Counted from the stretch's first letter, positions 38,439 through 64,000 are shown. The stretch: 64,000 nucleotides of DNA from an uncultured archaeon (GCA_964558645.1 CAZLEV010000005.1:64001-128000), one strand, 5' to 3'. Notes: generated from the letters alone by a model not told the origin. Numbers and translations are program-made.

Positions 38439-38480
38439 CCGCGGATAGGATAGTCTGTGGAAATGCAGGAGAGGTGAACG

Positions 38481-39111: not shown

Positions 39112-39126
39112 TGGAAGGAAGAGAGA

Positions 39127-40305
39127 ATGAACAGCGTCTACCTGGACTATCACTCGTCGAAACCGACAGACAAGAGAGTAATTGACGAGATGATGCCCTA
39201 TTTCACAGAGCTATACGGGAACCCATCGTCGCTTCATAAGATAGGGGACCTCGCCTCCGATGCGATGGAGGCAAGCAGAAAGAAAGTGGCGGATTTCATC
39301 AATGCAGATGAAGACGAGATTGTATTCACAGGTAGTGCCACTGAGGCCACAAACATGGCGCTCATCGGCTATGCGATGAAGAACAAGCGGAAGGGCAAGC
39401 ACATCATCATAACCGAGGTCGAGCACATCTCAATCCGCAACATAGCCAAGTATCTTGAAGCGAATGGCTTCGATGTGTCACGGGTCCCTGTGGACCAATA
39501 TGGCATGGTGGCACCGGACAAGATTGAACGGAGGATTCGCGATGACACTATCCTCATCAGTGTGATCTATGCCAGCAACGAGATAGGTACAATCCAGCCA
39601 ATCAAGGCCATAGGTGAGATTGCAGCTAAGCATGATGTTGCATTTCACTCGGACGCTGTCGCAGCCGAGGGACTGGTCCCTCTCGATGTAAGACGTGACG
39701 GCATCAACCTGATGACACTGTCAGCAAATGATTTGTATGGCCCTCGAGGGGTCGGGGCGCTCTACATGCAGAAACGCTACAGGGTGAATCCGATTATAAT
39801 CGGCGGGGGACAAGAGAGAGGACTGCGGTCCGGCTCTGAAGACGTTCCCGGAATCGTTGGGATGGGAGCAGCCGCAACGCTTATGCAGAGGGAGATGAAG
39901 GACGAACTGAAGCGCATGGAGTCATTTCGAAACAGGACTATAGATACAATCCTTCAGGAAGTGCCCGATTCCTATCTGAACGGTCATCCAACTGAGAGAC
40001 TGGCAAGCAACTCACACCTCAGGTTCGACGGTATTGAAGGAGAGGCATTGCTACTCTCATTCAAAGATCACGATATTGCAGTGTCAACGGGCTCGGCGTG
40101 TACCTCAAAGACCCTTGAGGCATCCCACACACTCATTGCCACTGGTCTGACCCACGAAGAGGCCCACGGGTCACTGCAGCTGACAACCGGAAGATTCACT
40201 GAAGACTCTGACATTGATAGAGTGCTTGATGCGACCCCTGACATAGTTAGCAATCTCAGAAGACTGTCACCCATCTACAACGAGAAGAAGGTGTTTGTAA
40301 GATGA
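39127..40305 (+). CDS. iscS: IscS/NifS-family cysteine desulfurase homologue with the PLP Lys replaced by Asp
   Basis: VYLDY, YGNPSS, SNEIGT, RSGS and STGSACTS. It has LSANDLYGPRG in place of SxHKxYGPKG. Confidence 0.9.
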   Translation: MNSVYLDYHSSKPTDKRVIDEMMPYFTELYGNPSSLHKIGDLASDAMEASRKKVADFINADEDEIVFTGSATEATNMALIGYAMKNKRKGKHIIITEVEHISIRNIAKYLEANGFDVSRVPVDQYGMVAPDKIERRIRDDTILISVIYASNEIGTIQPIKAIGEIAAKHDVAFHSDAVAAEGLVPLDVRRDGINLMTLSANDLYGPRGVGALYMQKRYRVNPIIIGGGQERGLRSGSEDVPGIVGMGAAATLMQREMKDELKRMESFRNRTIDTILQEVPDSYLNGHPTERLASNSHLRFDGIEGEALLLSFKDHDIAVSTGSACTSKTLEASHTLIATGLTHEEAHGSLQLTTGRFTEDSDIDRVLDATPDIVSNLRRLSPIYNEKKVFVR

Positions 40306-41081
40306 AACCTACCAAATATTCAGACAAAGTATTAGACCACTTCAGAAACCCACGTAATGTCGGCGTACTCGAAGGCGATGATGTCTCAGTAGGGAGGGTT
40401 GGAAATCCGACCTGTGGAGACCAGATGGAGGTCTTCATCAAAGTACAAGACGACCGCATCGTGGACGCAAGATTCAGGACCTTTGGCTGCGGCTCAGCTA
40501 TTGCAACCAGTAGCATGGTCACGGAGATGGCAAAAGGGATGACATTGGACGAGGCCCTTGACATAGAAAGAGCAGATGTCGCAACAGAGCTCGAGGGTCT
40601 ACCACCAATAAAGATGCACTGCTCAAACCTTGCTGCTGACGCACTTCATGAGGCAATCAAGGCATACCGGGCCAGAGAGGGAAAGGAACTGTCCGAGGCG
40701 ATCGAAGATAATGGTCCGGAGCCCTCGTGTCTCATTGGCAAAGACGAGTATCTTGACAAGGGAGTCTACCTGGATGTTGCGGATACTGATGATTTCTCGG
40801 GCAAGAGAGTCATCGTTCTCCACACGGGCGGCGAGTCAGTAGATGCTGCACTAGAGCTCACGTCCCAGACCGACCGCGTTGTTCTGATAACACCAGAGAG
40901 AAATATAGTGACAACTGAGGATCTTGCAGAAGAGCTACGCAGGTCGTCGGTCAAGGTTATCACTGAGTCAAGAGTTCTCGAGGTCTTGGGCGACTACGAA
41001 GTCGAAAAGGTCCGTGTGCATAATCTAGACGAGGATGAGGAATACGACCTCTTCGTAGACGCAGTGGTCATCATCGAGTAG
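40302..41081 (+). CDS. iscU: IscU/NifU scaffold fused to a degenerate TrxB NADPH-binding domain
   Basis: HFRNPRNVG, GNPTCGD, FGCGSA and KMHCSNLA, followed by about 115 aa resembling the thioredoxin reductase middle domain. Confidence 0.9.
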   Translation: MKPTKYSDKVLDHFRNPRNVGVLEGDDVSVGRVGNPTCGDQMEVFIKVQDDRIVDARFRTFGCGSAIATSSMVTEMAKGMTLDEALDIERADVATELEGLPPIKMHCSNLAADALHEAIKAYRAREGKELSEAIEDNGPEPSCLIGKDEYLDKGVYLDVADTDDFSGKRVIVLHTGGESVDAALELTSQTDRVVLITPERNIVTTEDLAEELRRSSVKVITESRVLEVLGDYEVEKVRVHNLDEDEEYDLFVDAVVIIE

Positions 41082-41689: not shown

Positions 41690-41694
41690 CACGC

Positions 41695-42507: not shown

Positions 42508-42517
42508 TCTGTGACCC

Positions 42518-43318: not shown

Positions 43319-43462
43319 CTCCAGAGGAAATCTTCTGCAGAGTTGTGCCTTGTCCGTGCTATAAGTGTGTTGCAGAAAGCGAATTGTTCTTCGTCAAGAG
43401 TCGAGCTGTGAGCCTATCACCAGATGAACCAGCAGTGGATTGCTCAGAAGCAACTCTTCATG

Positions 43463-43747
43463 TTATGCAATCTTCAGGTGTAGTCGGTTTAGGGTCCGCC
43501 AGTTATCGCGAATGGCAGATATCTCGTGAAGCCTCTCCGGGTTGGCCACATACTTCTGTGATCGCATATCCTGAAAGTCTGGAACCGCCCTGCAAATCTT
43601 GTGCTTGCATAACCGTCGTATTGCAAAGTTGACTGTTCGTCGAGCAAGCTTGGAGGACTCGGATATCTCGATTGACGACAGCGGCCCCTCCTCAGCAAGC
43701 CTGTCCAGCACAACCAGACAGCTCTTGGACAACAACACTTCTGTCAT
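43463..43747 (-). CDS. Small winged-helix regulator
   Basis: EGPLSSIEISESSKLARRTVNFAIRRL...PDFQDMRSQKY. Confidence 0.8.
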   Translation of the reverse strand: MTEVLLSKSCLVVLDRLAEEGPLSSIEISESSKLARRTVNFAIRRLCKHKICRAVPDFQDMRSQKYVANPERLHEISAIRDNWRTLNRLHLKIA

Positions 43748-43800
43748 GATTATCACAACCGCATCTGTAATCTGTGGGAGCCAATCTGACAACAAATACA

Positions 43801-43876
43801 GCAATATTTTTGCTTCCTGTTGCCAGTTTATGACTCCTGATAGCAAGTATGGCAACATTTATTTTAAATTTTGCCA
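43801..43876. promoter_or_regulatory. Divergent promoter with GGCAA/TTGCC inverted repeats
   Basis: TGGCAA(43850)-N15-TTGCCA(43871) surrounds a TATA-like TTTTAAA. TGTTGCCA (43818) mirrors TGGCAACA (43850). GCAA-N5-TTGC occurs at 43801. Confidence 0.5.
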
Positions 43877-43961
43877 CCCTAGCAAGAGAGTGACAGGCAT
43901 AGAAACATCCTTCATAGCCATTCGCATCGTAACGCTCTTTGAACATCAAGGAAGTGCTCAT

Positions 43962-45056: not shown

Positions 45057-45133
45057 TGCGCACAGCGGAGTACCAGAAGCCAGTTCCCAGCGAGAGTGGT
45101 GATTTGTACTTACATGCTGCACCTGGCAGAGAT

Positions 45134-46339
45134 TCAAAACAGCATCTTCAGCCCCGTTAGTGTATGTCGCGTTACCACGCGTTTCATGATGGCCATTCTT
45201 AGGTTGGAGTAAGGTCTGAGTCCACCTATGAGGTCAGTCATGTGCTCTCTGATGACCTCATCCTCTGCGGCCATCTGTACAATGCGCTCCATGTTATCCT
45301 GGGAGTTGAAGAGGAGGTTGGCAAGGAAGTTCGCAGCCCCGAGTTGCTTGCCAATATCTTTCTTCCAGCGGCGTTCGTATTCACGGGTCCCGTCTGCACG
45401 GCCTGTCGATATGTCCTTGACAGTGTCTGCGGCAATCTGGCCAGTCTCGATGGCGTAACATATCCCCTCACCTGTGGCGGGGGACACGAAACCAGCAGCA
45501 TCGCCAACCAGCATGATTCTCTTTGTCACCGTATTCCCGATTGGGCCCTTAAGAGGAACACGCATGGCGGTCTCCTCGCTTAGGTTCAGTCTGATATCAT
45601 ATCGCTCCTCAAACTCGTGGGTGAATACAGACCAGGCATGTCTCAGATCACCCGCAAAGGGCATCAAGCACCCCATTCCAAGCGATGCCTCACCCTTCTT
45701 TGGGAAACACCACGCATAGCCGTGCTCAAGGCCACCGAAGTAGATTTGGATGCATATCCGGTCAGACTCATAGGGGCCATGGGTGATTCGGAGGATATCA
45801 TCATCATCCATCGGGACACGAGCCTCGATGCACAGGCCGATCTCATCATCCTTCCAGCGTTTCTTGATTCCCGAAACACGAGCAACCCGACTGTTCACCC
45901 CATCGGCACCCACGAGATATGATGCTCGGTAGGTCTTCCCGTCATCACCGAAGACAGCCACATCGCTGCTACTCTCCGATACTTCGATGACCTTGACACC
46001 TGTGACCACTTCCGCTCCGGCCTCAACAGCCTTCTCCAACAGGTAGTTGTCAAAGACTCTGCGTTTCACGGTATAGCCCGTGACCTGATCTTTCGCACAG
46101 ATGACCTTTCTCCGGGATGGGGAGAATACATGCGATCCACAGGCAATCCGATCGATTGCGGGTGCGATATCGAAGTCTAAAAGGTCAGGAAGACCAGCAC
46201 GGAATCCACCACCACAGGCCTTCCTCCGGGGGTGGGTAACCTTGTCCAACAGGAGAACGTCCAGTCCATGCTGAGCGGCGCGCCTGGCGCAGGATGAACC
46301 AGCAGGGCCGCCGCCAGCAATTACGACATCGTATGTCAA
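45134..46339 (-). CDS. Geranylgeranyl reductase family FAD oxidoreductase
   Basis: GGGPAG, KACGG, GADG, YAWCFPK and LVGDAAGFVSPATGEGI. Confidence 0.9.
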   Translation of the reverse strand: MTYDVVIAGGGPAGSSCARRAAQHGLDVLLLDKVTHPRRKACGGGFRAGLPDLLDFDIAPAIDRIACGSHVFSPSRRKVICAKDQVTGYTVKRRVFDNYLLEKAVEAGAEVVTGVKVIEVSESSSDVAVFGDDGKTYRASYLVGADGVNSRVARVSGIKKRWKDDEIGLCIEARVPMDDDDILRITHGPYESDRICIQIYFGGLEHGYAWCFPKKGEASLGMGCLMPFAGDLRHAWSVFTHEFEERYDIRLNLSEETAMRVPLKGPIGNTVTKRIMLVGDAAGFVSPATGEGICYAIETGQIAADTVKDISTGRADGTREYERRWKKDIGKQLGAANFLANLLFNSQDNMERIVQMAAEDEVIREHMTDLIGGLRPYSNLRMAIMKRVVTRHTLTGLKMLF

Positions 46340-46446
46340 TGTATGTCGCTTCCTCTTCGGCTCGTATGCTACCGACCGACTATTATCTGTTTTCAACAAA
46401 AGCCTAAGCGGTATACGACACCTGCCGAAGTATAGATGAGGAATCC

Positions 46447-48831: not shown

Positions 48832-49031
48832 ATATTTGCCAACATTCTAGAAAAAGCCTTCCGTACTGAGGATTGCATCTCGATGGAGAAAGCTTGTGGA
48901 GATACTGGTCTGTCTTCTCTGTCCTGACTCGCGGACAACTACTAATGTCAGCACGGCAGCAGATGCCGACAGAAACCATAAGTGTGTGAAAGACCATTAG
49001 AAAGATTAGAGAAGTAGGTTGGTTAGTCCAA

Positions 49032-51878: not shown

Positions 51879-52005
51879 CCATCTGACAGGAACAGGGGCA
51901 TACCAAGGAGAATCTGCAAGAGGCTAGCGACGCATATGACCGGGCCCGTGACCTGTGTGTCAGCCTGTGATTAGTCACTGTACAATACTGCCTGCGTCAG
52001 ATGGC

Positions 52006-52878
52006 TCAAGAGTCGGCGGATGAAGTGTCCAGTTCCTGAAACCTGCTCAAGAAGACGACACCAAACATGCCGCAGATGAGGCCTAGAGCATAGAACGGCA
52101 CACTGGTCATGGTCTGCCCGAATATGTAGAGTCCGCCAAAGATCACAGCGAACATACTGATTGTGCCGGTGATAGCGTTGAATCGGGCGGCTGGGTTGCG
52201 CTGGAGACCTATCGAGACCGTGTAGACCCCTGCAGAAAAGGTGAAGACGCCCAATAGGACGAGGGGAATGAGTCCGTTGATGAAGCCTTCAATGATGTCC
52301 GAGCCTGTGAACAATGCCAGCGTGAACCACTGAGTGTACTGTGAGGCCAGGGCCTGCAAGACAGACGTGATAGGAGCCCAGAGCATTGCTGCCCTGCGGG
52401 TGGCGGGCACCATCACTCCCACGGCAATCAGCATGACAACAGAGTAGAGGAGAATGCTGTCGTACGAAGTGAACATGGTTGGTTCCGTGACCCCTCCGAG
52501 GGCGATGAATACGGGAGTGAGGATGAGCATGAAGACACCGATGATCGTCCGAGAGTCTATCTCTTCACCCAGTCTGCGGTTTGATAAGACTACGAGCGCG
52601 ATGAGGCCCACATTCATCAAGGGCTGGACCACAACGATTCCCGCCATCTGGGTTGCAAGAAGATAGGCGAGTCCTCCAGCCAGTGACATCAGGAACCCGA
52701 GAAGCCATCTCCTGTTTCTGAAGAGAGCTCCCGTCTGGCCTATGGCGCCAGATATCTCGATGTCCTCCATGGTACCGAGGGCCTCTTTCTGGATGATAGG
52801 GGCAATATTCCACATCAGGGATGTGATGATAGCGAGGAGGATTCCAAGGAACACACCGGTCACAATGAACTGCAACAT
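52006..52878 (-). CDS. DMT/EamA-superfamily membrane transporter
   Basis: About 9 TM; IVVVQPL and LGEEI. Confidence 0.75.
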   Translation of the reverse strand: MLQFIVTGVFLGILLAIITSLMWNIAPIIQKEALGTMEDIEISGAIGQTGALFRNRRWLLGFLMSLAGGLAYLLATQMAGIVVVQPLMNVGLIALVVLSNRRLGEEIDSRTIIGVFMLILTPVFIALGGVTEPTMFTSYDSILLYSVVMLIAVGVMVPATRRAAMLWAPITSVLQALASQYTQWFTLALFTGSDIIEGFINGLIPLVLLGVFTFSAGVYTVSIGLQRNPAARFNAITGTISMFAVIFGGLYIFGQTMTSVPFYALGLICGMFGVVFLSRFQELDTSSADS

Positions 52879-53185
52879 CAGGCATCATGGGCACGGCGTC
52901 GCTGGATTCCTAAAAAGATATGGCATCGACTGGAGATGGGTCCGAGTCAGAAAAGCAACAGAGGAAGGAACGCATAAGACGAGGCAAAGTGGAACCTGTC
53001 CCCACCACATTCCGTGCCACTGCTTCTCATTAAAACCAGCTCCTAGCACTCTACTACCGGGGTACTATTGTGCAACTCCCCGCACAAGGTTTGCGAACCA
53101 TGTACAGCATTGCTCATAACACTCATATGGCTGCTCATGCCATATCTATTGAGGAAGCGTTCCAACTATGGGAGATGGGTAACGA

Positions 53186-53599
53186 ATGCGCTTCGAAGGC
53201 AGTGAAACGATCGAACTACCAGAGTCCACCGAGTGGCAGACGGTCCGCGACAGGATTGCCACGTGGCGGAACACGCGGGCGGGTCACGAGTATCGCATCG
53301 TTGAGAGCGCTCCAGGAAGGGTGGTCTTGGAGAGGACATGGACATCAACGACGAGCGTAGTGTGCATCGTCCTCACGGTGGTGTTCATGCTGTCCACCCA
53401 TTTCTTCACCCTCCTGACCATCGGGCTACCCCTGGTCATCGCGATGGTATACCTCATGCAGGACAAGATCCGAATCGAGGTGCTCTTTGCGGACTCAAGG
53501 GTAGATCTGCACCTAGGGGCCACACAGCGAGCGGAAGCAGAGTGGGACCTTGACTCATTGGTGAATGCACTCGAGGACCTGAAGACGTGCAGTAGATGA
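53186..53599 (+). CDS. Hypothetical membrane protein (2 TM)
   Basis: Central hydrophobic hairpin. Confidence 0.6.
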   Translation: MRFEGSETIELPESTEWQTVRDRIATWRNTRAGHEYRIVESAPGRVVLERTWTSTTSVVCIVLTVVFMLSTHFFTLLTIGLPLVIAMVYLMQDKIRIEVLFADSRVDLHLGATQRAEAEWDLDSLVNALEDLKTCSR

Positions 53600-53612
53600 C
53601 CTGACAGTAGAG

Positions 53613-54398
53613 TCAAATAAGGAAGAGCCGCAGAAGTGTCACAAGGCCAAGTAAGACTGAACATGTCCCAACCACTCTTCGCGCCCTTCTGTCATCAAGC
53701 TTACGCACAAACAGTGCTCCCACAGGGGCTGCCAGTGCGCCAGTCACCACCATGATGAGGGCCGCCTGCATGACAAGCGTCACCTGATAGATGTCAGAGA
53801 GTACAACGTACATGAGGAACGCGATGGAGGAGATGGTTGCCTCTGAGAATTGAGTGATGCCCACCGAACTCTTGACCTCGCTGCCAGTCATGATCTGCAC
53901 ACTGGTCACAATGGGACCGTAGCCGCCGCCAGAGATGGCCTTGTTGAAACCGCCAAGGCCGCTGGCCAGATAGAGTTTCCACCACCCGCCGCTGAAGCTG
54001 ACTTTGAAGCGGACAACGATGCCGACAATGAGCATCATCAGCCCGATGTACGTGAGCATGAACCAATCTGGAAGGGTCACAGCCAGGGTCGCTGAGATGA
54101 CTGCGCCAATGACACCGATGGTCGTGAAGAGGAGGTAGATTCGGGCCTCTCGCTGGTCAGGCGACGTGAATTCGATGTTTCTGAACAGGCGATGAAAGAT
54201 GGAACCGCTGAGTCCTGCCACTGTCTGAGAGAGAAGCAGCAAGGGCACAACTATGAGGGGGTCGAACCCGATGAGGATGAAGATGGGGGTGAGAAGGCTG
54301 TAGCCCATGCCGAAGGCGTTGTCCACGAAACTTCCAATGAAGCCGAGGATGATTATGGCAAGCAGAAGGGGTGTGCCCGGGTCGGTCAGGACCTGCAT
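53613..54398 (-). CDS. TSUP/TauE-SafE sulfite exporter family permease
   Basis: VDNAFGMGY..LTP and GFNKAISGGGYGP. Confidence 0.88.
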   Translation of the reverse strand: MQVLTDPGTPLLLAIIILGFIGSFVDNAFGMGYSLLTPIFILIGFDPLIVVPLLLLSQTVAGLSGSIFHRLFRNIEFTSPDQREARIYLLFTTIGVIGAVISATLAVTLPDWFMLTYIGLMMLIVGIVVRFKVSFSGGWWKLYLASGLGGFNKAISGGGYGPIVTSVQIMTGSEVKSSVGITQFSEATISSIAFLMYVVLSDIYQVTLVMQAALIMVVTGALAAPVGALFVRKLDDRRARRVVGTCSVLLGLVTLLRLFLI

Positions 54399-54726: not shown

Positions 54727-55773
54727 TCATATCCAGCCAAAGAGAGCCACATAGGCCACTCCCGCTATGAGAGAAAACAGGAAGAAGATAACCGTATAGA
54801 TGAGAACGCCTCTCCATTTGAAGAACCGACTGTTCGGGGCCATTGATACAAAGTCATAAGGCTGTCCCATCATGAAGGCCAATGCAGTTGACCGCGACAT
54901 TCCCTTTGCAAGAAGCGTACTTGTTAGTACAATCTCAACAAGCGTGGGTGTGTAAAGGGGACCACCAAGAAGCGATCCGAAAAATATACCCAACCACCCA
55001 GTGAAGTACGAAACAATCCATTCGCTAGGAAGAAAAGCAGCAATGTAGCTGACGATAATCAGCCCGATGAGTAGATAAGCAAGAATCGATTTCATCAAGA
55101 ACCATATATTGTTGTATACATTTCGAACTCGATCATTAATTGTCTTTGTCAGTAGTAGCTTCTTGGCTTTTCCTACTCGTACATCATCATACTGCTTCTG
55201 AAGATCTCTTGCGAGCTTCGTTCGATCAAATACAAATCCACACAAAACAGCAGCGATCATGGAAAAGAACAGTCTGAACAAGCCAAGATCCCAACCCAGA
55301 TAATCGCCTGTCAAAAGAATGGTGATCAAATTGGCAGCTGGAGCCATCAGAAAGAAGGTCATCGCAACGCCAACAGTTGCGCCACTCATTAGAATTGAAA
55401 CATAGATGGGTATTACCGAGCAACTACATGTTATGAACAGGGGGGATAGGAGTGCAGCAAGCAAGTAGTTCCTTAGACCGTGAGACCCAAGATACTTGAC
55501 AATCATATCCTCTTTTACATACTCCTGGATAGCCCCCCCAATGAAGAAGGCCAACAATAATGAAGACCATGCATTCCTTCCGTAATCAATTATGTACCTT
55601 ATCGGAATCTCGTACAATGGAAATTGACTGTAATCAATGGTCTGAGAAGGTGGTGGTGTAGATAAGAGCTCTATCTTATTGATGACGAACGCACACACGA
55701 CCGCACCAAACACAATGATTAGCAGAATAGTAGTGAGATGAATTCCATCAGTACTCTCTGACTGCTCTTCCGT
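54727..55773 (-). CDS. ArsP/DUF318-family permease; probable ACG start (track start 55713)
   Basis: TCSCSVIP, AMTFFLMAP and GMS...ALAF. The in-frame N-terminal TM extends upstream of GTG 55713. Confidence 0.82.
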   Translation of the reverse strand, partial: TEEQSESTDGIHLTTILLIIVFGAVVCAFVINKIELLSTPPPSQTIDYSQFPLYEIPIRYIIDYGRNAWSSLLLAFFIGGAIQEYVKEDMIVKYLGSHGLRNYLLAALLSPLFITCSCSVIPIYVSILMSGATVGVAMTFFLMAPAANLITILLTGDYLGWDLGLFRLFFSMIAAVLCGFVFDRTKLARDLQKQYDDVRVGKAKKLLLTKTINDRVRNVYNNIWFLMKSILAYLLIGLIIVSYIAAFLPSEWIVSYFTGWLGIFFGSLLGGPLYTPTLVEIVLTSTLLAKGMSRSTALAFMMGQPYDFVSMAPNSRFFKWRGVLIYTVIFFLFSLIAGVAYVALFGWI

Positions 55774-56651: not shown

Positions 56652-58544
56652 TTGGTTTTAAGAGGAGATGACGCGGAATATCAGGAAGCAATCCGGTTCT
56701 GGGAGGGGCAAAGCGATACAAACAAACGAATAATCCTTCAGACCCTTGTAGAAAATAGCTGGGACTTCGAGGGGGTTACAGAGGAGTATGGTAGCAAGAT
56801 AGCTCGTATTCCCCTTTCTGTCTTGCAGGCGGAGTATAAGAGGCTGAATCTGACTCCTAGGCGATTGGAGAAAGAATTCCGAGATCCGTTGAAGGCAACT
56901 CCTTTGAAGAATACTCTGAAGCGTTTGAGTCAGACCTGTACCGCAGAGGAGGCGATCGCAGAGTTAGTAGACAATGTCTTCGACAACTTTGCGAGGAAAC
57001 GTCATGAACGTACAACGGATCTCTTGGAAATCGGCATTCACTTCCTCTCTCGTGAGGGGGAACACTACGACGAGATAATCCTCAGGGAGAATAGTGGGGG
57101 GGTCAGGAATGATGAGCTTCTCCCGTTGGTTCGGTTGGGGGACTCGGCGACTGCCGGAGCACGCACGATCGGTGCATGGGGACAAGGATCGAAGATTGCA
57201 TGCTTTGCCCTAGCAGATGAAATAGAGATTTTTACCCATCATCCTGCCCATCGTCCGGTCTGTATTCATTTCCCAGACGGATGGCTAAAGGAAGAACACC
57301 CACGATACAAAGACTGGGAAGTGAAAGTATACGAAGCTGAGGATGTACCTAGTGGGACAACGGTATTTCGTTTCTGTAACTTGAAGACAACGGCAAGAAC
57401 GGCTGACCTGACAGCTATCAAGAAATACCTTGAGAGAATCTATTCCTACAAAATCCAGGATTGGAGAGAACAGGGTACCACGATTGATATCCGATTAGAA
57501 GATACACTGAGCGATGTATCCTATGAAATTGAACCCGTTTTCACTGTTGATATTCTCGAGGAAGAGAGGGGCTTCTGTTGGTTTCCTGATTATGCACCAT
57601 TGGAGGTGACTCATGTGCTCGAAAGCGAAACGCCGTTGGGTGAGAAGATCGAAGTCAAGGTAAGGATGGTTTGTGGTATACTGAGTGATTCGAAGTCGGA
57701 CCTAGGGGGAGTATATATGTACGGTAATAAGCGACTCTTCACACCAAAGCCGGAAACTGATGAAAGGGTGGGTTACGGTCTAGATGTTCAGGGAAGGAGA
57801 GGCAAGATTCAGAAATATCGGCCCTCGCTCTATCGTCTTTTGACATTTGTCTTCTTCGAAAGCGAGGAACAGGAGTCTGAGTATATACCTTGGGCTGCAC
57901 CTCTCAAGAACCGGTATAATCCAAGTAACGTCTTTCATGATGAAATAATCCAGATTCTCTACAGAATAGTCTATCCGTATAGTCTTGTATGCGAAGGTCT
58001 AGAGAGGGAAATGCTACCATTCTTTTCCAAAAGATGGGACGCTCTTGGCCGCCAAGAGAAGAAGAACCTAGTGGAATCATTCTTTGGCGGAGACGTGAAT
58101 CCCGAGGAAGTAGTCAAATACCATATCATTGAAGGCAACCTGGACAATCTTCGTCAGTTCCCTTTTGAACAAGTAAAGGGAATCAGCGACTTGCCCTTCG
58201 GGCAAGTAAAATCTTCAACAGTGAAGAAGTTCCTAGAAAAAGTCAAAGATGAGAAGTTCAACGTTGGAAGGAGAGAGTTCTTCTTGGCATTCTTCTCGGG
58301 CACGGTGAATCGACTAGTCGGTGAAGGAGTGCTCGACATAGACTTACCCGCACCAGATCCAGATCATATCAATATGGAGTACATAGAGAGTTGCCTTGAG
58401 CAGATGGAGCAGCTGTACGAGTCGGGGACAATCAAGCTTGAGATGGATGAGAAGGAGAAACTACAGAAGAAACTCAATCTACCAGAAGAGGCATCTGTAG
58501 CTGAGATTATCGATGCACTTGCAAAGAAAGAACTCGGCATCTAG
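56652..58544 (+). CDS. GHKL (HATPase_c/MORC-like) ATPase
   Basis: AIAELVDN (motif I), ENSGG (II), IGAWGQGSK (III) and SGTTV (IV); S5-like GVYMYGNKRLF. Confidence 0.85.
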   Translation: MVLRGDDAEYQEAIRFWEGQSDTNKRIILQTLVENSWDFEGVTEEYGSKIARIPLSVLQAEYKRLNLTPRRLEKEFRDPLKATPLKNTLKRLSQTCTAEEAIAELVDNVFDNFARKRHERTTDLLEIGIHFLSREGEHYDEIILRENSGGVRNDELLPLVRLGDSATAGARTIGAWGQGSKIACFALADEIEIFTHHPAHRPVCIHFPDGWLKEEHPRYKDWEVKVYEAEDVPSGTTVFRFCNLKTTARTADLTAIKKYLERIYSYKIQDWREQGTTIDIRLEDTLSDVSYEIEPVFTVDILEEERGFCWFPDYAPLEVTHVLESETPLGEKIEVKVRMVCGILSDSKSDLGGVYMYGNKRLFTPKPETDERVGYGLDVQGRRGKIQKYRPSLYRLLTFVFFESEEQESEYIPWAAPLKNRYNPSNVFHDEIIQILYRIVYPYSLVCEGLEREMLPFFSKRWDALGRQEKKNLVESFFGGDVNPEEVVKYHIIEGNLDNLRQFPFEQVKGISDLPFGQVKSSTVKKFLEKVKDEKFNVGRREFFLAFFSGTVNRLVGEGVLDIDLPAPDPDHINMEYIESCLEQMEQLYESGTIKLEMDEKEKLQKKLNLPEEASVAEIIDALAKKELGI

Positions 58545-58559: not shown

Positions 58560-59060
58560 ATGCGATACAGAAGTGTGACGGAAAAGGACATTCTGTTCAT
58601 TCTTGAGGAATCGATTAGTAAGTTGCCGCATCATCCTTGGATCCAGACCGAGAGTGACATAAAATGCGCACTTTATACCGCGTTTTACAATATGATTTCA
58701 GTCCGAATAGCCAATCTCGAGAGCTGTGGTTGGCGAGTCATTACGGAGTATCCATTACCCGACGGCAAGTATGTCGATTTTGCTGTTCTCCACAACGGCC
58801 ATCCGTGTTTGTTTGTTGAGATAAAATACATCAAGAATTTCACAACTAAGGAAATCGCGGATATTCGGGAGGACTACTTGAAGAGAAAATCCTTTCTGAT
58901 CAGCGAAGAAGTCAAGCTGCTACAGCTTGTTGCAAGTGAGTTTGACGGGGACTACGAAGAGGTGATTTGCGAGAAGATGATAAGAGCATATGGCGAACTC
59001 TATGAGGGGGGTCTGGGAGGAAAGGCATACATCATATATATTCGGATTCCAAGTGGCTGA
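58560..59060 (+). CDS. PD-(D/E)XK-type nuclease
   Basis: TESD, EYP...YVDFAVL......FVEIKY and a downstream helix DY.KR. Confidence 0.72.
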   Translation: MRYRSVTEKDILFILEESISKLPHHPWIQTESDIKCALYTAFYNMISVRIANLESCGWRVITEYPLPDGKYVDFAVLHNGHPCLFVEIKYIKNFTTKEIADIREDYLKRKSFLISEEVKLLQLVASEFDGDYEEVICEKMIRAYGELYEGGLGGKAYIIYIRIPSG

Positions 59061-59085: not shown

Positions 59086-59472
59086 CTACTCCGTTAGTAC
59101 ACTCTTCTGACGACTGTCAAGCAAAAGCAAGAAGTCATCAAGCGATCTGATCCTCGTGTGGATCAGGGATATGCCTCGGTTAAGGTGAGCCTTGAGATAG
59201 GCTTCAGCCTTTTCGAAGTCGATTTCATCTGCAGATAACCGTTCGATCAGAAGAGATCTGAAAGCATTATCCCATTTTCCCGTTAAAGAGTACCTATTCA
59301 GTTCTTTGCCATCTTCATCGAAGTCGAAACTTGGAAACCCCTCTTTCTCCATCGAATAGCAGAGAGCAACTCGACACAGAAGATTCGGTGTTATTCCTGT
59401 CCTCCGCCTCAAGACAGTTAGTTTGGAGGTTGACGACCGACTGACCTTGATTTTCTTGAATTCCAGCTTCAT
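59086..59472 (-). CDS. dndE: DNA phosphorothioation protein DndE
   Basis: TGITPNLLCRVALCYS, GKELNRYSLTG and KAHLNRG; ATGA-coupled to dndD. Confidence 0.93.
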   Translation of the reverse strand: MKLEFKKIKVSRSSTSKLTVLRRRTGITPNLLCRVALCYSMEKEGFPSFDFDEDGKELNRYSLTGKWDNAFRSLLIERLSADEIDFEKAEAYLKAHLNRGISLIHTRIRSLDDFLLLLDSRQKSVLTE

Positions 59473-61460
59473 CCGCAGGTCCTCCTGGTCGTTGCTATTG
59501 TACGGCGTTCGGCACCATCAAACTGAAGATGGTATTCCTGAGATATGATGGGGCGGATCTTCTTTCCAACCTCTTCGGTAACTTCAGTTTCCGTAGCGAA
59601 CATTACTATCTGTGGACCTGCAAGTGGAATGAATTTCGAGATCACAGAGGCACGATGTTCCTCATCTAGTCGGGAGAATGGAGTATCAATGAAGACTGGC
59701 AGACTTCTCTTCGATATTTTAGAGATGGCGCCCAGTAGTGCATATATGTAGATTTGTTGTTCTCCTGAAGAAAGGACCGACGAGCCGGTTGTCCTGCCAT
59801 CGCTATGCTGGATACTGACATCAAGTGCATCCCTTCCAATTTCAACGGCACGGAGTCGTTTGTTACGGGGTCGCATGTTGTTGTAAATCTGCTTGAACTC
59901 TGCAGTCAGTTCTTCTGCATAAAATGAATGAAGTTCTCTCTTGAATTCTTTGACTACCCCACGGAGTCTGTCAACTAGTGCAAGTTTCCGTTTGTGCTTC
60001 TCGGCCGCCTCTGTTTCTTTCATTGCCTTGTTCTGACGGTTCCTAAGCTGCTCAATGTCAACAATGAGCGAATCAAGCTCGTCCTGAAGCTCGTTTTTCT
60101 CCCGTTCGATCTTCTCAAGGTCCCGTATAGAATCACGCAAATCGCTCACAAGAGGTTTGAGACTCTCATCTGTGGGCATTCGAGAGAGGTCATCGCGTAC
60201 TTGCTCCAGTGAGGCTTCTACTTGGCCGTATTCGCTTACATAGTCTCTGAATTCCTGAAGAGCTGTCGGCGCATCATGGGTAAGTAGTCTGACTACCCGG
60301 TCGGTTTCGAAAGAAGATAGCTTGTGACGAAGCGGAATATTGTGACTATTCTCAAGTCTGCTGGATATCGCATCCAGAATGTCCTCAGCTATGCGCTCCT
60401 TCTGGGAAGAGGATAAATCAAGTGAGTCGAACACGCCATCGGAAGCCATTGAGCTAGCAAGTTCCTTCTTGCCATCCTTCATCTTTCTGACTACTGCATT
60501 AGATGATATTATATCCGCTTCTCTCTTTAGAACCTCGACGGTCTTCTTCTTCAACGATGGGGCGAAAACAAACGGGAGAGCATTTGAGAAAAGCTCTAGT
60601 ATTGCTCGCTCTAATGTTTCTTTCTCAACAAGGAGATGTCGCTCTTGACGGTGAAGCTCGTTCCTTTGCTCAGCATACTCTGAGCCCTGCCTCGAAAGCC
60701 TTAGCTCCTGTTCCGTAATGGAAGCCTGGATATCGATGAGAAGGCCGTCGATTTCGGCTAGTCTCTCATGAATCCACTCGCTCCTCTCAGTCAACTCATT
60801 TATCTCATTCTCTAGCTTCTCGAACACAGAGAAGTCGGCCTGAATCTCCTTCTTGTTCAACCAGTACATGTATCTAGGCAAGTCGGAATCCAGTTGATTG
60901 ACAACATCGATTCCCACCAGAGTTTCAAATCCGTCTCTGAAAATCTTCTGTGGGCCGCGGGCTCCAGATAGTCGGTCTATTCGTTCCCCGTCGAAGAATA
61001 TCAGCTGGGCGAGTCCTGCAGGCACAAAATTCAGAAGGAATTCCTGAGGATAAGTGAGTTCCTTCTCTGGTTCTCCTCCCTGTAGAATTGATGCTCTGAG
61101 GTCCTCAATCACACCACCGTCTCTTTGAGTCCATGCGCGGGATATCCGGAGACGGTAATCGATACCTCGCTCAGCATAGGCTATTTCCAACTCTATTGAT
61201 GAAGTGTCGGCGGAGTTTCCGCCTGATATTCGCTGCTTGATGAAATCCTGGTAATCCGCTTCTTTCATCTTGATCCCTCGGAAGAAAGGGCCGTAGATGC
61301 AAAGAGAGATTGCCTGAAACAGTGTGCTCTTACCGGCGCCATTCTTCCCAGTGAAGAGAATCAACGAAGGTGATTGTTTTTCGTCTTCACAGGACAGACT
61401 GAAGCTATAAGATCCTCGATATGGACCGAAGTTCCGAATGTCTACAGAACGCACCCTCAT
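59469..61460 (-). CDS. dndD: DNA phosphorothioation SMC-like ATPase DndD
   Basis: NFGPY, GKNGAGKST, FFDGERI, coiled coil, LSSGEQQ, FIDTPFSRLD and ATETE. Confidence 0.95.
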   Translation of the reverse strand: MRVRSVDIRNFGPYRGSYSFSLSCEDEKQSPSLILFTGKNGAGKSTLFQAISLCIYGPFFRGIKMKEADYQDFIKQRISGGNSADTSSIELEIAYAERGIDYRLRISRAWTQRDGGVIEDLRASILQGGEPEKELTYPQEFLLNFVPAGLAQLIFFDGERIDRLSGARGPQKIFRDGFETLVGIDVVNQLDSDLPRYMYWLNKKEIQADFSVFEKLENEINELTERSEWIHERLAEIDGLLIDIQASITEQELRLSRQGSEYAEQRNELHRQERHLLVEKETLERAILELFSNALPFVFAPSLKKKTVEVLKREADIISSNAVVRKMKDGKKELASSMASDGVFDSLDLSSSQKERIAEDILDAISSRLENSHNIPLRHKLSSFETDRVVRLLTHDAPTALQEFRDYVSEYGQVEASLEQVRDDLSRMPTDESLKPLVSDLRDSIRDLEKIEREKNELQDELDSLIVDIEQLRNRQNKAMKETEAAEKHKRKLALVDRLRGVVKEFKRELHSFYAEELTAEFKQIYNNMRPRNKRLRAVEIGRDALDVSIQHSDGRTTGSSVLSSGEQQIYIYALLGAISKISKRSLPVFIDTPFSRLDEEHRASVISKFIPLAGPQIVMFATETEVTEEVGKKIRPIISQEYHLQFDGAERRTIATTRRTCG

Positions 61461-62860
61461 CGATCAAGCTTCCTCCTAGTAGCAAGCACTTCCTCTTTCG
61501 ACCGCCATTCCTCAGAGAAGACTCGGTCGATATGTTCCATCATCGAAGATCTTCTCGCTAGACCCTGCTTCAACGCCTCCAAATCAAGTAATTTCTTGAC
61601 AAGATCTAGTGGCACATTCTCTTTCTCACAGAGGCTCTGAAGAATATCCTGCTCTTTCATTCCGAAGGTGACTATGTCGTCCGTCTTCCACTCCAAGTCC
61701 TTATCCATCTCTTCTCGATATATTTTTGGAACACGATCAAGCCAATCTGCACGCTCCAATCGCCAGATACGGCGGATTGCATGTAATTCATCAGAGCGAA
61801 TAACCACGAAGGTATCCAGACCTGTTTCATCTATCTTCTTCTGAACTCTTAGCACCATTCTTAGTATCTTCTCACACACATCAAGCCTGTATGGGCCTGG
61901 AACGATGGCACTGGAATCATTTCGCATGAAAGAAACACGGCCGTTTCGTCTTTTGTACTGGCGATATTCCTTCTTCTTCTCCGGATTAGTAGTCATATGC
62001 AAGAAGTCCCTTATCTCGAGAAGATCACTCATCCAACCTCTTCTGGTGTCAATTAGATGTTCCATGGATCTATCGCTTTCCACGAGCGTACAGACCCAGC
62101 ATCCGAAACGCGAGTTACCACAAGGAGGCGTCTTTGTGTCAACAACCATAGGGCACTCTCCGCCCTCGGCATCTTTATAGAGATCAAACAGGGCGTAGTT
62201 ATCACCGCCCCAAGGGGAACTCTCTTCCAGTAGATAACCCCAAACTTCGTCTACACTAAACTCCTTGATAGGAGCATAGACATAAGCTCCCGCAAAGTGT
62301 GTATGTTTGAGGAGCTTCGGCCTTTTCGTTTCTCTCAAACTGAGTACTTGATCGCGTGTGGCACTTTCACCCTGTCTGACACCCAATACGATTATCACTT
62401 CGCCATGATACGCAATCTTCTCCTCAATGAATCTGTTCGATGGTCGTATCTTCAAACGATCCGTACACCAGCGAAATTTCTGGGTTGGAGCAGGATATCC
62501 TCTCCCAATAAGGTTCACCCAGAAACTATCATTTATGGCGGGCTGAACCAATGCAATCTCAAATGGGAGATTCGCATCCTCGGCCGCATTCTTCATTCTT
62601 GAGAGAGAATCGCGTAGGTAGTCGAGGACAACAGGGTTCTCTACGAATGTATCGGAGGATATGACATAGAGCTTCTTTTGCAGCTTCTTTCTCGGCAATT
62701 CGGACAGTGCAGACCAGACCATCTGTAAAGCCGCTGTGGAGTCCTTGCCCCCGCTGTAACCAACTATCCACGGGCGGTCGTCCGCAAGAAATAAGCTTCT
62801 GATTTCCTCGTATATGTTACTGAGCCGCCACTCATCTATGATCACCGATGTTTCACTCAT
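61457..62860 (-). CDS. dndC: DNA phosphorothioation sulfurtransferase DndC (PAPS-reductase family, Fe-S)
   Basis: GYSGGKDS, FWVNLIGRGYPAP..FRWCTDRLKI, ECP and CGNSRFGCWVCT. Confidence 0.96.
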   Translation of the reverse strand: MSETSVIIDEWRLSNIYEEIRSLFLADDRPWIVGYSGGKDSTAALQMVWSALSELPRKKLQKKLYVISSDTFVENPVVLDYLRDSLSRMKNAAEDANLPFEIALVQPAINDSFWVNLIGRGYPAPTQKFRWCTDRLKIRPSNRFIEEKIAYHGEVIIVLGVRQGESATRDQVLSLRETKRPKLLKHTHFAGAYVYAPIKEFSVDEVWGYLLEESSPWGGDNYALFDLYKDAEGGECPMVVDTKTPPCGNSRFGCWVCTLVESDRSMEHLIDTRRGWMSDLLEIRDFLHMTTNPEKKKEYRQYKRRNGRVSFMRNDSSAIVPGPYRLDVCEKILRMVLRVQKKIDETGLDTFVVIRSDELHAIRRIWRLERADWLDRVPKIYREEMDKDLEWKTDDIVTFGMKEQDILQSLCEKENVPLDLVKKLLDLEALKQGLARRSSMMEHIDRVFSEEWRSKEEVLATRRKLDR

Positions 62861-63169
62861 TGACGACGACCCCGACTTCCAAGACGCTCTGCCATTTTCT
62901 CTCTGAGTTCATACTCCCTGAAATGCCTTTTCCTTTCGGGCCTCAGATTCGCAAAGGAACAGCACTCATGGGAGTATCTGTTACTCCTATGTGAGCATCT
63001 GTACATCAAGCTTCCCAATTCCATTTCCCTCATCATGTGTGTTCCACTTGCTGCAATAAAAGGTCGTCAATTCCCTGAATCTCTCATCATTGATTTCGAA
63101 GAATCATGAGATCATGTAGCTCTGCTTGTCTTCTCATACACTATACCTGGTGATTCCCCAAGAGCTCGT

Positions 63170-63802
63170 CTATTCGTACTCATTCGACAAGAACTGCTTG
63201 GGTATTTCTGCAAGTACCTTCTTCTCGAACTGCTCTCTGACTCTAACAAAGTCAAGAGCAATGTACTCAGGCGCGTGTGACCTCATCTTCCACTCTACAA
63301 ACCTGCTGCTCGCAAGTTTGTCGATGAAGGATATGTCCCCATCTTCTCTTGCGGCATCAGAGTAGTACGGAAACACGACATTGGTTACGAAATCGTCATC
63401 GAGGATTATGTCAAGAAAGTCGTAAAGCTTCCGCCTGTATTCAACTTCCCTTTCTTGATCCAGATCCTCGTTCCTTGATAACCACAGGAGAAGAAGTGCA
63501 TTGCGAAGCATGTTTACTTCTTTCTCTACATTGGCACTGAACTCATAGCTGCCGTCGCAAGGGAACTCGTCAACTTCCAACGGAGGAAGTTTGACGGTTG
63601 AGTAGAGCCCGTAGAAGACTGTTAGAAGGAGGATGTCCACCTTCCTGGGTCCGCTAAGGTAGTCAGTTTCGTTGTACTGATCACGTCCCTCCTTCCCGGC
63701 TGCTGGAGATTCAGCAGTCTGCTCACCCACCGCCTTCAGAAGACTCTCAAGTTGTTTCGGCATTCTGATATTACCTTTTAACTGCATGTTCCCAGACCTC
63801 AC
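63170..63802 (-). CDS. Dnd-associated hypothetical protein (PbeD/DndE-like candidate)
   Basis: GTGA-coupled to the upstream ABC/SMC ATPase and located directly upstream of dndC. Confidence 0.6.
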   Translation of the reverse strand: MRSGNMQLKGNIRMPKQLESLLKAVGEQTAESPAAGKEGRDQYNETDYLSGPRKVDILLLTVFYGLYSTVKLPPLEVDEFPCDGSYEFSANVEKEVNMLRNALLLLWLSRNEDLDQEREVEYRRKLYDFLDIILDDDFVTNVVFPYYSDAAREDGDISFIDKLASSRFVEWKMRSHAPEYIALDFVRVREQFEKKVLAEIPKQFLSNEYE

Positions 63803-64000
63803 TTCGGATTCTCGATTTTTTCGACCTCTGCAGAGAAATACTCAGCAAAATCATCAAGCTCGGTGGGCAAACAAAGCAGCATGACTTGTGGATGATTGTT
63901 CACCAAATGCTTTGCAAGGGCAGCTCTGTGACTTCCAACATTGCCCACAGGCGTGTCGATAATGATGGGATCAACCTGGCTCATTGCCTCCGCGAAGAGA
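63799..64000 (-). CDS. C-terminus of a second SMC/DndD-like ATPase (PbeC-like candidate), partial
   Basis: Frame is open to the window edge: LFAEAMSQVDPIIIDTPVGNV..HR...QVMLL..PTE, a Walker B/D-loop region parallel to DndD PVFIDTPFSRLD...QIVMFATETE. Confidence 0.7.
   Translation of the reverse strand, partial: LFAEAMSQVDPIIIDTPVGNVGSHRAALAKHLVNNHPQVMLLCLPTELDDFAEYFSAEVEKIENPK

What the first reader, a model, noticed from the sequence alone, without database searches (positions are those of the whole stretch)
59086..64000. DNA phosphorothioation locus (pbeC/pbeD-like, then dndCDE) in a probable Asgard archaeon, with no dndA or dndB
Seen: dndC-dndD-dndE coupled by ATGA overlaps, preceded on the same strand by a second SMC-type ATPase C-terminus and a coupled 210-aa gene. 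No desulfurase follows dndE. Known: haloarchaeal dndCDEA-pbeABCD provides PT-dependent antiviral defence. Inference: an Asgard Dnd-Pbe-like system lacking local DndA and carrying an extra MORC-nuclease module. A pbeA-like helicase/PLD gene should lie just beyond the window.
Basis: partly seen in the sequence, partly recalled or inferred. Interest (0 to 1): 0.8.

Follow-up and report, generated by a model that had tools for sequence, protein, structure and literature searches.

The report
Dnd-Pbe phosphorothioate defence island, Asgard
An Asgard archaeon (probably Thorarchaeota) carries a horizontally acquired island with a complete, already described DNA-sulfur-marking antiviral system (dndCDE plus pbeABCD), so it is a new host lineage for a known system; the one less ordinary feature is an ATPase-nuclease gene pair that travels with it.

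Summary
dndC, dndD and dndE pass NCBI's curated equivalog cut-offs and are joined by ATGA overlaps. The truncated ATPase at the window edge is the C-terminus of a 622-aa PbeC-type ABC ATPase with an invariant mid-coil CxxC. The 210-aa gene is a PbeD, meaning a divergent DndE.

No dndA or dndB lies in the island. A housekeeping NifS-NifU pair sits 19 kb upstream and could supply sulfur.

The island is about 14.5 kb, has lower GC than its flanks, and is absent from both same-genus genomes. DndC occurs in 9 of 400 genomes of the phylum. Three genomes of the same family carry close copies, two of them with dndA.

The convergent "MORC-nuclease" pair is a GHKL ATPase (Hsp90/TRAP1/SMCHD1-like, not specifically MORC) plus a PD-(D/E)xK nuclease. 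Its only close relative in the phylum also sits beside Dnd-Pbe, and a distant pair sits 5 kb from a pbe-methylase island. Other distant pairs have no such neighbours, so coupling is unproven.

Verdict: a new member of a known kind, of modest interest. An earlier scan note describes Pbe with an Hsp90-like ATPase in another genome.

The parts
63799..64000 (-). pbeC, C-terminal 66 codons. The gene runs on to L001:11667, which is window-equivalent 65667, for 622 aa. It is a CxC/Zn-hook-type ABC ATPase.
   Evidence: PADLOC PbeC 2.2e-24 for the full length. Walker A DGxTGKTT, GGYSGR, Walker B IIIDTP and a mid-coil PPxCQIC are invariant in 4 Thor-family homologues. Beyond the window on the same strand lie pbeB (56 aa, L001:11674-11844) and pbeA (L001:11851-13863, probable true start at L001:13647).
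63170..63802 (-). pbeD, a divergent (clade-2) DndE. The probable start is the ATG at 63787, giving 205 aa.
   Evidence: No Pfam, PADLOC or NCBIfam hit. There are 37 representatives among 1.84 billion proteins. AF2 gives pLDDT 88.9 with two beta-alpha-alpha repeats. The top two of 48,161 PDB chains are DndE 5wtu_A and 7x4e_A (Z 4.5, 102-106 residues aligned).
62861..63169 (-). 309-bp spacer between pbeD and dndC. It is the likely promoter region of dndCDE.
   Evidence: It is the only long gap in the minus-strand cluster. Promoter function is inferred, not tested.
61457..62860 (-). dndC, a PP-loop ATPase / sulfurtransferase
   Evidence: TIGR03183 542.5 bits. SGGKDS at residue 36 and a Cys cluster at 236/247/254/257.
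59469..61460 (-). dndD, a coiled-coil ABC ATPase without a Zn hook
   Evidence: TIGR03185 371 bits. Walker A GKNGAGKS, and no mid-protein cysteines.
59086..59472 (-). dndE (clade-1)
   Evidence: TIGR03184 76.1 bits, PF08870 6.2e-23, PADLOC DndE 6.1e-35.
58560..59060 (+). 166-aa PD-(D/E)xK nuclease, partner of the GHKL ATPase and convergent with dndE
   Evidence: E31, D33, D73 and E87-x-K89 are invariant in 4 homologues. The 188-aa partner in the distant pairs hits Pfam HSDR_N at 1.3e-5, 25.6 bits, above the cut-off.
56652..58544 (+). 630-aa GHKL ATPase (HATPase_c_3) with an Hsp90/SMCHD1-like middle domain
   Evidence: PF13589 6.5e-8. The Bergerat motifs are conserved. AF2 pLDDT is 71.6. TRAP1 N+M gives Z 17.4 and the SMCHD1 ATPase Z 16.7.
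54727..55713 (-). ArsP-type permease, at the left end of the low-GC island
   Evidence: PF03773 5.7e-51. GC is 0.44 against 0.55 for the neighbouring TauE gene. Same-genus DNA similarity stops at about 53620.
39127..41081 (+). NifS-type cysteine desulfurase plus NifU scaffold, the candidate sulfur donor acting in trans
   Evidence: TIGR03402 NifS 451 bits and TIGR03235 DndA 344 bits, both below their cut-offs; NifU 3.2e-55. It is 40% identical to the DndA of related loci. It lies in DNA shared at 77-91% with both same-genus genomes.

Best explanation
A low-GC island of about 14.5 kb, acquired horizontally by an Asgard archaeon (earlier scan notes say Thorarchaeota), encodes a complete phosphorothioate (PT) defence system of the DndCDE-PbeABCD type. 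Inferred mechanism: a housekeeping NifS/IscS-type desulfurase supplies persulfide sulfur. DndC, with the DndD-DndE DNA-scanning pair, writes PT into host DNA as the self mark. The Pbe complex stops replication of unmarked invading DNA. That complex consists of the Zn-hook ABC ATPase PbeC, its own DndE-like partner PbeD, the small protein PbeB, and the HKD-nuclease/SF2-helicase PbeA. The convergent GHKL-ATPase/PD-(D/E)xK-nuclease pair is most likely a self-contained two-gene restriction-like module that shares the defence island and moves with it. Shown here: gene identities, motifs, folds, island limits and distribution. Inferred only: PT synthesis, the sulfur donor, antiviral activity, and any cross-talk with the GHKL pair.
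For: dndC, dndD and dndE exceed the curated equivalog cut-offs and keep their catalytic motifs. PbeA, PbeB, PbeC and PbeD are all present and intact. Three related genomes of the same family carry the same genes at 43-62% identity. G325 has dndCDEA, divergent pbeABCD, a transposase, and then the GHKL-nuclease pair. G322 and G331 have pbeABCD. The island has GC 0.42-0.48 against 0.52-0.55 in the flanks, and it has no DNA match in either same-genus genome although both flanks match at 77-91%. True DndC occurs in 9 of 400 genomes of the phylum. NifS-type desulfurases 40-50% identical to the relatives' DndA exist in trans. Published work shows that IscS can replace DndA and that DndA is present in only 32% of Dnd-bearing taxa (PMC10853773). 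dndCDEA-pbeABCD gave about 10^4-fold protection that depended on PT (PMC6459918). For the autonomy of the GHKL pair: distant GHKL-nuclease pairs in two other genomes of the phylum (family f22) and on metagenome contigs have no dnd or pbe nearby.
Against: No PT chemistry or expression data exist. dndA is present in the two related loci where the region after dndE is visible (G325, G363), so its absence here could be a recent loss that disables marking. The PbeD-DndE structural match is weak in absolute terms (Z 4.5), and a sequence-profile comparison found nothing. The mechanism of Pbe itself is disputed: replication block without cleavage (PMC6459918) versus HKD-mediated cleavage or suicide (PMC10853773). 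The genome bin has 6.3% estimated contamination.
Confidence: 0.8

Rival explanations
1. The GHKL ATPase and its PD-(D/E)xK nuclease are a functional third arm of the system. In this reading they form an ATP-driven restriction or suicide effector that reads the PT mark or is licensed by the Pbe complex, so that Dnd, Pbe and GHKL-nuclease make up one composite system.
For: In the phylum, close homologues of the ATPase (E <= 1e-15, 46% identity) occur only in G000 and G325. Both lie within 2 kb of Dnd-Pbe despite a rearrangement and an intervening transposase, and their divergence is similar to that of the dnd/pbe genes. A distant pair (31% identity) lies 5 kb from a pbeA-pbeC-methylase island on metagenome contig L127. 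Only 4 relatives exist among 5.8 billion proteins. In G322 and G331 the slot next to pbeABCD holds a GmrSD/SspE-like nuclease instead. An earlier scan note reports an Hsp90-like ATPase joined to Pbe in another genome (untested). PMC10853773 notes standalone REase genes at the edges of Dnd systems, sometimes on the opposite strand.
Against: G000 and G325 may represent a single inherited linkage. Distant pairs in G183, G226 and L138, and about ten further GHKL loci, show no dnd or pbe nearby, although most of those contigs are short. G322 and G331 have pbeABCD without the pair. The pair is on the opposite strand, so it is not co-transcribed. Defence genes cluster in islands regardless of function.
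Confidence: 0.2
2. The locus is a decaying or silent remnant. Under this reading the loss of dndA, replaced by the convergent GHKL pair, abolished PT marking, and the PT-dependent Pbe module is therefore inert.
For: The related loci G325 and G363 keep dndA directly after dndE. Here only 25 bp separate dndE from the convergent gene. Xiong et al. showed that Pbe needs PT.
Against: All seven dnd/pbe genes are full-length open frames with intact motifs and translational coupling. Most Dnd systems lack a linked dndA and use IscS/NifS. Two NifS-type enzymes are available.
Confidence: 0.1
3. Dnd and Pbe are adjacent but functionally decoupled. PT would serve epigenetic or redox roles, while the Pbe (CxC-ABC) module would act as an abortive-infection or suicide system released by a viral trigger through PbeB.
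For: This is the model proposed in PMC10853773. Only 42% of PbeAC pairs have dndCD nearby, and DndCD and PbeAC similarity correlates poorly (rho 0.107). G363 has dndBCDEA without pbe, and G322 shows pbe without a visible dnd. PbeA keeps the HKD catalytic His and Lys in all three homologues.
Against: Experimental PT-dependence of Pbe in the haloarchaeal system. Here, and in G325, the two modules are adjacent and diverged to a similar degree.
Confidence: 0.15
4. The contig is bacterial contamination binned into an Asgard genome.
For: Estimated contamination is 6.3%. The nearest DndC sequences outside Asgard are bacterial at 43-47% identity.
Against: Both flanks of the island on the same 239-kb contig match the two same-genus genomes at 77-91% DNA identity. 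The closest dnd and pbe homologues (46-62%) are in genomes of the same family.
Confidence: 0.02

Closest known systems
DndCDEA-PbeABCD of Haloterrigena jeotgali A29 (Xiong et al. 2019, PMC6459918)
   Same: The same seven core genes are present. dndC-D-E are in that order. PbeA is a helicase, PbeB is tiny (56 vs 66 aa), PbeC is a coiled-coil ABC ATPase and PbeD is small. There is no dndB and no dndFGH nearby.
   Different: There is no dndA in the cluster. Here pbeABCD lies upstream of dndCDE on the same strand rather than after dndCDEA. PbeD is 205-210 aa rather than 152 aa. The host is Asgard, not a haloarchaeon. The proteins are too diverged for PADLOC to recognise PbeD, and PbeC scores only 2e-24.
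Tandem DndD-DndE and CxC-ABC-ATPase-DndE anchored systems (Krishnan et al. 2024, PMC10853773)
   Same: All of the following match: an HKD endoDNase fused to an SF2 helicase, a fast-evolving small protein, an ABC ATPase with a cysteine Zn hook at the coiled-coil apex, a cognate divergent double-RHH DndE, and adjacency to a canonical DndDE module. This arrangement is reported in 936 bacterial and 41 archaeal taxa.
   Different: The hook here reads CxxC (CQIC), not the eponymous CxC. The held text of that paper does not name Asgard lineages and does not mention a GHKL ATPase partner.
dnd systems that use housekeeping IscS in place of DndA (cited in PMC10853773, refs 15 and 18)
   Same: dndCDE have no linked desulfurase. 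A NifS/IscS-type enzyme is encoded elsewhere, next to its Fe-S scaffold.
   Different: Those bacterial systems usually keep dndB. Substitution has not been shown for an archaeal NifS.
Prokaryotic MORC/paraMORC GHKL ATPases in restriction-modification operons (Iyer, Abhiman & Aravind 2008, PMC2292703)
   Same: Both have an N-terminal GHKL ATPase with intact ATP-binding motifs, a following transducer-like domain, and operonic coupling to an E-D-ExK restriction-fold nuclease. paraMORC3 has such a nuclease fused.
   Different: There is no Pfam MORC S5 hit. The best structural matches are Hsp90/TRAP1 N+M and SMCHD1, tied (Z 16.7-17.4). There is a long helical C-terminal region. No helicase or methylase lies in the pair's own operon. 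The family is very rare.

Membership tests
Dnd phosphorothioate modification module (DndABCDE) | DndC PP-loop ATPase/sulfurtransferase | tested here: met
   TIGR03183 542.5 bits against a cut-off of 290.4. SGGKDS and a four-Cys cluster are present.
Dnd phosphorothioate modification module (DndABCDE) | DndD coiled-coil ABC ATPase paired with DndE | tested here: met
   TIGR03185 371 bits (cut-off 245.85) and TIGR03184 76.1 bits (cut-off 71.85). ATGA coupling.
Dnd phosphorothioate modification module (DndABCDE) | DndA cysteine desulfurase in the operon | tested here: not met
   None lies in the island. NifS-type genes lie 19 kb away and on contig C12. DndA is dispensable when IscS/NifS substitutes (PMC10853773).
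Dnd phosphorothioate modification module (DndABCDE) | DndB regulator | tested here: not met
   TIGR03233 has no match in the 92.8%-complete genome. DndB is also absent from the haloarchaeal system, so it is optional.
Dnd phosphorothioate modification module (DndABCDE) | PT linkages present in genomic DNA | not testable with these tools
   This needs LC-MS/MS or iodine-cleavage sequencing.
PbeABCD / CxC-ABC-ATPase-DndE anchored system | PbeA: HKD (PLD-fold) nuclease fused to an SF2 helicase | tested here: met
   PADLOC PbeA 9.9e-45, with ResIII, Helicase_C and PLDc_2. H93, K95 and GSxN are invariant, and the helicase motifs PPGTGKT, DECH, SAT and QKxGRAxR are present.
PbeABCD / CxC-ABC-ATPase-DndE anchored system | Small fast-evolving protein (PbeB) between pbeA and pbeC | tested here: met
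   A 56-aa ORF lies at L001:11674-11844. It is conserved at 31-48% identity in the same position in G325, G322 and G331.
PbeABCD / CxC-ABC-ATPase-DndE anchored system | ABC ATPase with a cysteine Zn hook at the coiled-coil apex, which is absent from DndD | tested here: met
   PPxCQIC near residue 346 of 622 is invariant in 4 homologues. DndD has no mid-protein Cys. The motif is CxxC rather than literally CxC. Zinc binding was not tested.
PbeABCD / CxC-ABC-ATPase-DndE anchored system | Cognate clade-2 DndE (two RHH repeats, longer than clade-1) directly after the ATPase | tested here: met
   The AF2 model (pLDDT 88.9) has two beta-alpha-alpha units plus extra helices. Ranks 1 and 2 of 48,161 chains are DndE 5wtu_A and 7x4e_A, and tandem-RHH TraY is at rank 6. 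Caveat: Z is only 4.5. Foldseek and hhalign gave no significant match.
PbeABCD / CxC-ABC-ATPase-DndE anchored system | PT-dependent antiviral activity | not testable with these tools
   This needs a challenge assay.
MORC / paraMORC GHKL ATPases | GHKL Bergerat ATP-binding motifs | tested here: met
   PF13589. ExxxDNxxDN, ENSGG and GxWGxG are conserved in 7 sequences.
MORC / paraMORC GHKL ATPases | S5-fold transducer domain and MORC-specific signature | tested here: inconclusive
   No Morc6_S5 hit. The model aligns equally to TRAP1/Hsp90 N+M (Z 17.4) and the SMCHD1 ATPase module (Z 16.7). The middle region has moderate confidence.
MORC / paraMORC GHKL ATPases | Operonic link to a restriction-fold nuclease | tested here: met
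   The partner gene starts 16 nt after the ATPase stop. The pair recurs in G325, G183, G226, L138, L127 and L142.
DndFGH restriction module | DndH (dnd_assoc_3) present | tested here: inconclusive
   TIGR03238 found nothing in the genome, but the control genomes also gave no hit.

The most novel reading that the evidence does not exclude
The rare GHKL-ATPase/PD-(D/E)xK-nuclease pair is an undescribed accessory effector of Pbe (CxC-ABC) systems. It would be co-inherited with Dnd-Pbe in Thorarchaeota and recur next to Pbe elsewhere, adding an Hsp90/SMCHD1-like ATP-driven nuclease arm to phosphorothioate- or methylation-based immunity in the closest archaeal relatives of eukaryotes.
Probability: 0.2. 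Interest if true: 0.6.

Novelty: new member of a known kind. Interest (0 to 1): 0.36.

Why it matters
It places a complete PT-based Dnd-Pbe defence system in Thorarchaeota-type Asgard archaea. For Asgard, I found on record only a dndCD pair in Heimdallarchaeota LC_3 without pbe (supplement of PMC6459918), and no mention in the Asgard defence survey PMC11291487. Practical consequences: DNA from such lineages may carry PT, which affects iodine/Tris cleavage, long-read signal, and any future genetics or virus-host work in Asgard archaea. The locus also gives a natural test of whether an archaeal NifS can feed DndC. It offers a diverged set of PbeABCD proteins for resolving the disputed Pbe mechanism. 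The co-travelling GHKL-nuclease pair is a candidate new defence module worth a direct test.

Tried and rejected
- Profile-profile comparison of the shallow PbeD alignment with 64 DndE sequences gave no signal. Foldseek against the PDB gave nothing below E = 2, and an HMM search of PDB sequences gave nothing. Only the exhaustive structural search placed DndE on top.
- PbeD, the 166-aa nuclease and orf252 have no Pfam, PADLOC, NCBIfam or PHROG hits.
- orf252 (L001:13883-14641, upstream of pbeA) was considered as an eighth component because a homologue follows dndA in G363. I rejected this: the family occurs in 11 of 400 genomes and only 2 of those have DndC, and it is probably separated from the true pbeA start by about 235 bp. 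The Atlas gave only weak nuclease leads at 0.79.
- A literal MORC assignment was rejected because Hsp90/TRAP1 and SMCHD1 tie. PADLOC gave the ATPase no hit to any defence-system model.
- The DndC donor could not be identified. The quick tree groups the Thor clade with another Asgard family and two gammaproteobacterial MAGs against Bacillota. The sample was chosen by shared peptide words, lacks haloarchaea, and the careful tree search did not finish.
- VPS28 was not found.
- No tRNA or integrase marks the island ends.
Full report
**What is at the coordinates.**
- The minus strand of window 59086-64000 carries five ORFs in a row: a 66-codon open C-terminus, then 210, 467, 663 and 128 aa.
- The last three are DndC, DndD and DndE by NCBI's curated equivalog models: 542.5, 371 and 76.1 bits, each above its cut-off. 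Pfam and PADLOC agree.
- Both internal junctions are ATGA overlaps.
- DndC keeps the SGGKDS PP-loop and a four-cysteine cluster. DndD keeps Walker A, the signature motif and Walker B, and has no cysteines in its coiled coil.
- Dnd naming by PADLOC alone is unsafe. The true DndD scores higher on a 'PbeC' model (1.4e-136) than on any DndD model. I therefore assigned the two ATPases by NCBIfam, position and motifs.

**Beyond the window.**
- The window is G000:C5:64001-128000. I fetched C5:118001-138000 as L001, where window coordinate = L001 coordinate + 54000.
- The truncated ATPase is a 622-aa protein (L001:9799-11667) with PADLOC PbeC 2.2e-24.
- It has an invariant PPxCQIC motif in the middle of the coiled coil, plus invariant Walker A, signature-like GGYSGR and Walker B, across four homologues of the same family.
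- Upstream lies a 56-aa ORF (L001:11674-11844). It is conserved at the same position in three related genomes.
- Upstream of that lies a 670-aa ORF (L001:11851-13863), whose real start is probably 72 codons in. It scores PADLOC PbeA 9.9e-45, with ResIII, Helicase_C and PLDc_2.
- In it the HKD histidine, lysine and GSxN are invariant, and all SF2 helicase motifs are present.
- This is exactly the gene set that Krishnan et al. define for Pbe: an HKD-SF2 protein, a small protein, a Zn-hook ABC ATPase and a cognate DndE (PMC10853773).

**The 210-aa protein.**
- It has no hit in any HMM library.
- A word-based search of 5.8 billion proteins found two relatives.
- An exhaustive profile search of 1.84 billion representatives found 37.
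- With 35 sequences, AlphaFold2 gave pLDDT 88.9 and pTM 0.87. The model has two successive strand-helix-helix units followed by extra helices.
- Foldseek found nothing significant.
- Aligning the model to each of 48,161 PDB representatives put the two DndE structures, 5wtu_A and 7x4e_A, at ranks 1 and 2. Both have Z 4.5, cover 102 of 104 and 106 of 114 residues, and stand 1.1 Z above rank 3. The tandem ribbon-helix-helix protein TraY is at rank 6.
- The Z score is low. However, the rank, the coverage and the genomic position after the Zn-hook ATPase together support a clade-2 DndE, that is PbeD.
- Homologues start at the ATG 15 nt inside the ORF.

**dndA and dndB.**
- dndE is followed after 25 bp by the stop of a convergent gene.
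- DndB (TIGR03233) has no match in the genome, which is 92.8% complete.
- Seven or more class-V aminotransferase genes exist.
- The two closest to the DndA of related loci are a NifS-SelD fusion on contig C12 (46-50% identity) and a NifS at window 39127-40305 (40% identity). The latter is followed by NifU.
- The NifS-NifU pair lies in DNA shared with both same-genus genomes, so it is a core gene and not part of the island.
- Published work shows that IscS can replace DndA, and that only 32% of Dnd-bearing taxa have DndA.
- The missing dndA is therefore ordinary. The sister loci G325 and G363 do keep it, so loss here may be recent.

**Host and island.**
- The genome encodes a full-length actin at 438 bits on Pfam Actin, and two TRAPP-domain proteins. 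No control prokaryote matched the TRAPP family.
- Earlier scan notes call the genome Thorarchaeota. I tested only the Asgard-level markers.
- Window 36001-53620 and L001 from about 16900 onward match the two same-genus genomes at 77-91% DNA identity. Nothing between those points matches.
- GC is 0.42-0.48 across L001:700-15000 against 0.52-0.55 outside.
- True DndC is found in 9 of 400 genomes of the phylum, and neither same-genus genome has it. Close PbeC homologues occur in four genomes, all of the same family.
- In a quick DndC tree the four sequences of this family form a clade (SH-aLRT 99). That clade joins another Asgard family and two gammaproteobacterial MAGs against Bacillota (SH-aLRT 100). 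A ninth Asgard sequence sits separately. This implies at least two acquisitions in the phylum.
- The taxon sample is biased, so no donor can be named.

**Related loci.**
- G325:C12 reads dndA-E-D-C on one strand, then pbeA-B-C-D divergently, then an rve transposase, then the GHKL ATPase and its 166-aa partner.
- G363:C16 reads dndB-C-D-E-A.
- G322 and G331 show pbeABCD next to a GmrSD-type (DUF262/DUF1524) gene.

**The convergent pair.**
- The 630-aa protein has HATPase_c_3 and conserved Bergerat motifs.
- Its model (pLDDT 71.6) aligns over residues 67-457 to TRAP1/Hsp90 N+M (Z 17.4) and to the SMCHD1 ATPase module (Z 16.7). These are tied. 'GHKL ATPase' is therefore justified and 'MORC' is not specifically justified.
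- The 166-aa partner keeps E, D, D and ExK residues across four homologues. In distant pairs the partner passes Pfam HSDR_N, the nuclease core of type I restriction enzymes.
- The ATPase family is rare, with four relatives among 5.8 billion proteins.
- Its only close copy in 400 genomes of the phylum is the one beside Dnd-Pbe in G325.
- A 31%-identical pair lies 5 kb from a pbeA-pbeC-methylase island on metagenome contig L127.
- In contrast, pairs in G183, G226 and L138, and about ten further loci, show no dnd or pbe, although most of those contigs are short.
- I read the pair as an autonomous restriction-like module resident in the same island. I give 0.2 probability that it is functionally coupled.
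- GHKL-plus-nuclease modules in restriction contexts are known in general (PMC2292703). No paper in the held library links GHKL with DndD/DndE.

**Novelty.**
- The tandem DndDE plus CxC-ABC/DndE arrangement is described for 936 bacterial and 41 archaeal taxa.
- dndCD in Heimdallarchaeota LC_3, without pbe, is listed in the 2019 supplement.
- The Asgard defence survey's text and held supplements do not mention Dnd or Pbe.
- This is therefore a new member of a known kind in a new lineage. The GHKL-nuclease companion is the only element that might be new.

Noticed in passing
P0020-P0043 (relatives of the protein at window 63170-63802): Of 35 members of the PbeD-like family, 10 are about 350-400 aa and carry a Schlafen AlbA_2 domain, and 3 carry a Swt1-like HEPN domain. 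In other lineages this DndE-like DNA binder is therefore fused directly to putative nucleic-acid-targeting effector domains.
   Followed up: partly
L001:13883-14641 (-), 20 bp upstream of the pbeA ORF: A 252-aa protein of unknown family has an N-terminal domain of about 95 aa and a C-terminal domain that also occurs alone or with other N-termini. It is present in 11 of 400 genomes of the phylum, and in G363 it directly follows dndA. There are only weak language-model leads to NucS/BglII-type nucleases.
   Followed up: partly
L112:2977-4842 (-) and L113:1868-3706 (+): In G322 and G331 a GmrSD-type protein (GmrSD_N + GmrSD_C, the architecture shared with SspE) lies directly beside pbeABCD. This is the position where G000 and G325 have the GHKL-nuclease pair.
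   Followed up: no
L094:4898-8459: In G363 the dndBCDEA operon is followed by the orf252 homologue, a DpnII-like (GATC) restriction endonuclease and an N4/N6 methyltransferase. G325 has a BglII-like endonuclease next to dndA. GATC-related enzymes next to Dnd recall the GpsATC motif of the haloarchaeal system.
   Followed up: no
window 51673-51785: A short element of about 60-100 bp matches many different contigs of both same-genus genomes at 75-97% identity. It is probably a dispersed repeat or miniature mobile element.
   Followed up: no
G000:C12:109484-111712 (L004:1483-3711): A 742-aa fusion of a NifS-type cysteine desulfurase (or selenocysteine lyase-like enzyme) with the selenophosphate synthetase SelD.
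   Followed up: no
L127:4746-5270: On the metagenome contig carrying pbeA-pbeC, a 174-aa protein with a PC4-type ssDNA-binding domain follows the putative pbeD. It precedes two DNA methyltransferases and a DUF6996/6997/7226 restriction-like gene.
   Followed up: no
window 59469-61460: PADLOC 'PbeC' model PDLC02756 scores the genuine DndD at 1.4e-136, above every DndD model. PADLOC PbeC and DndD models therefore cross-react, and automatic Pbe calls need checking.
   Followed up: partly
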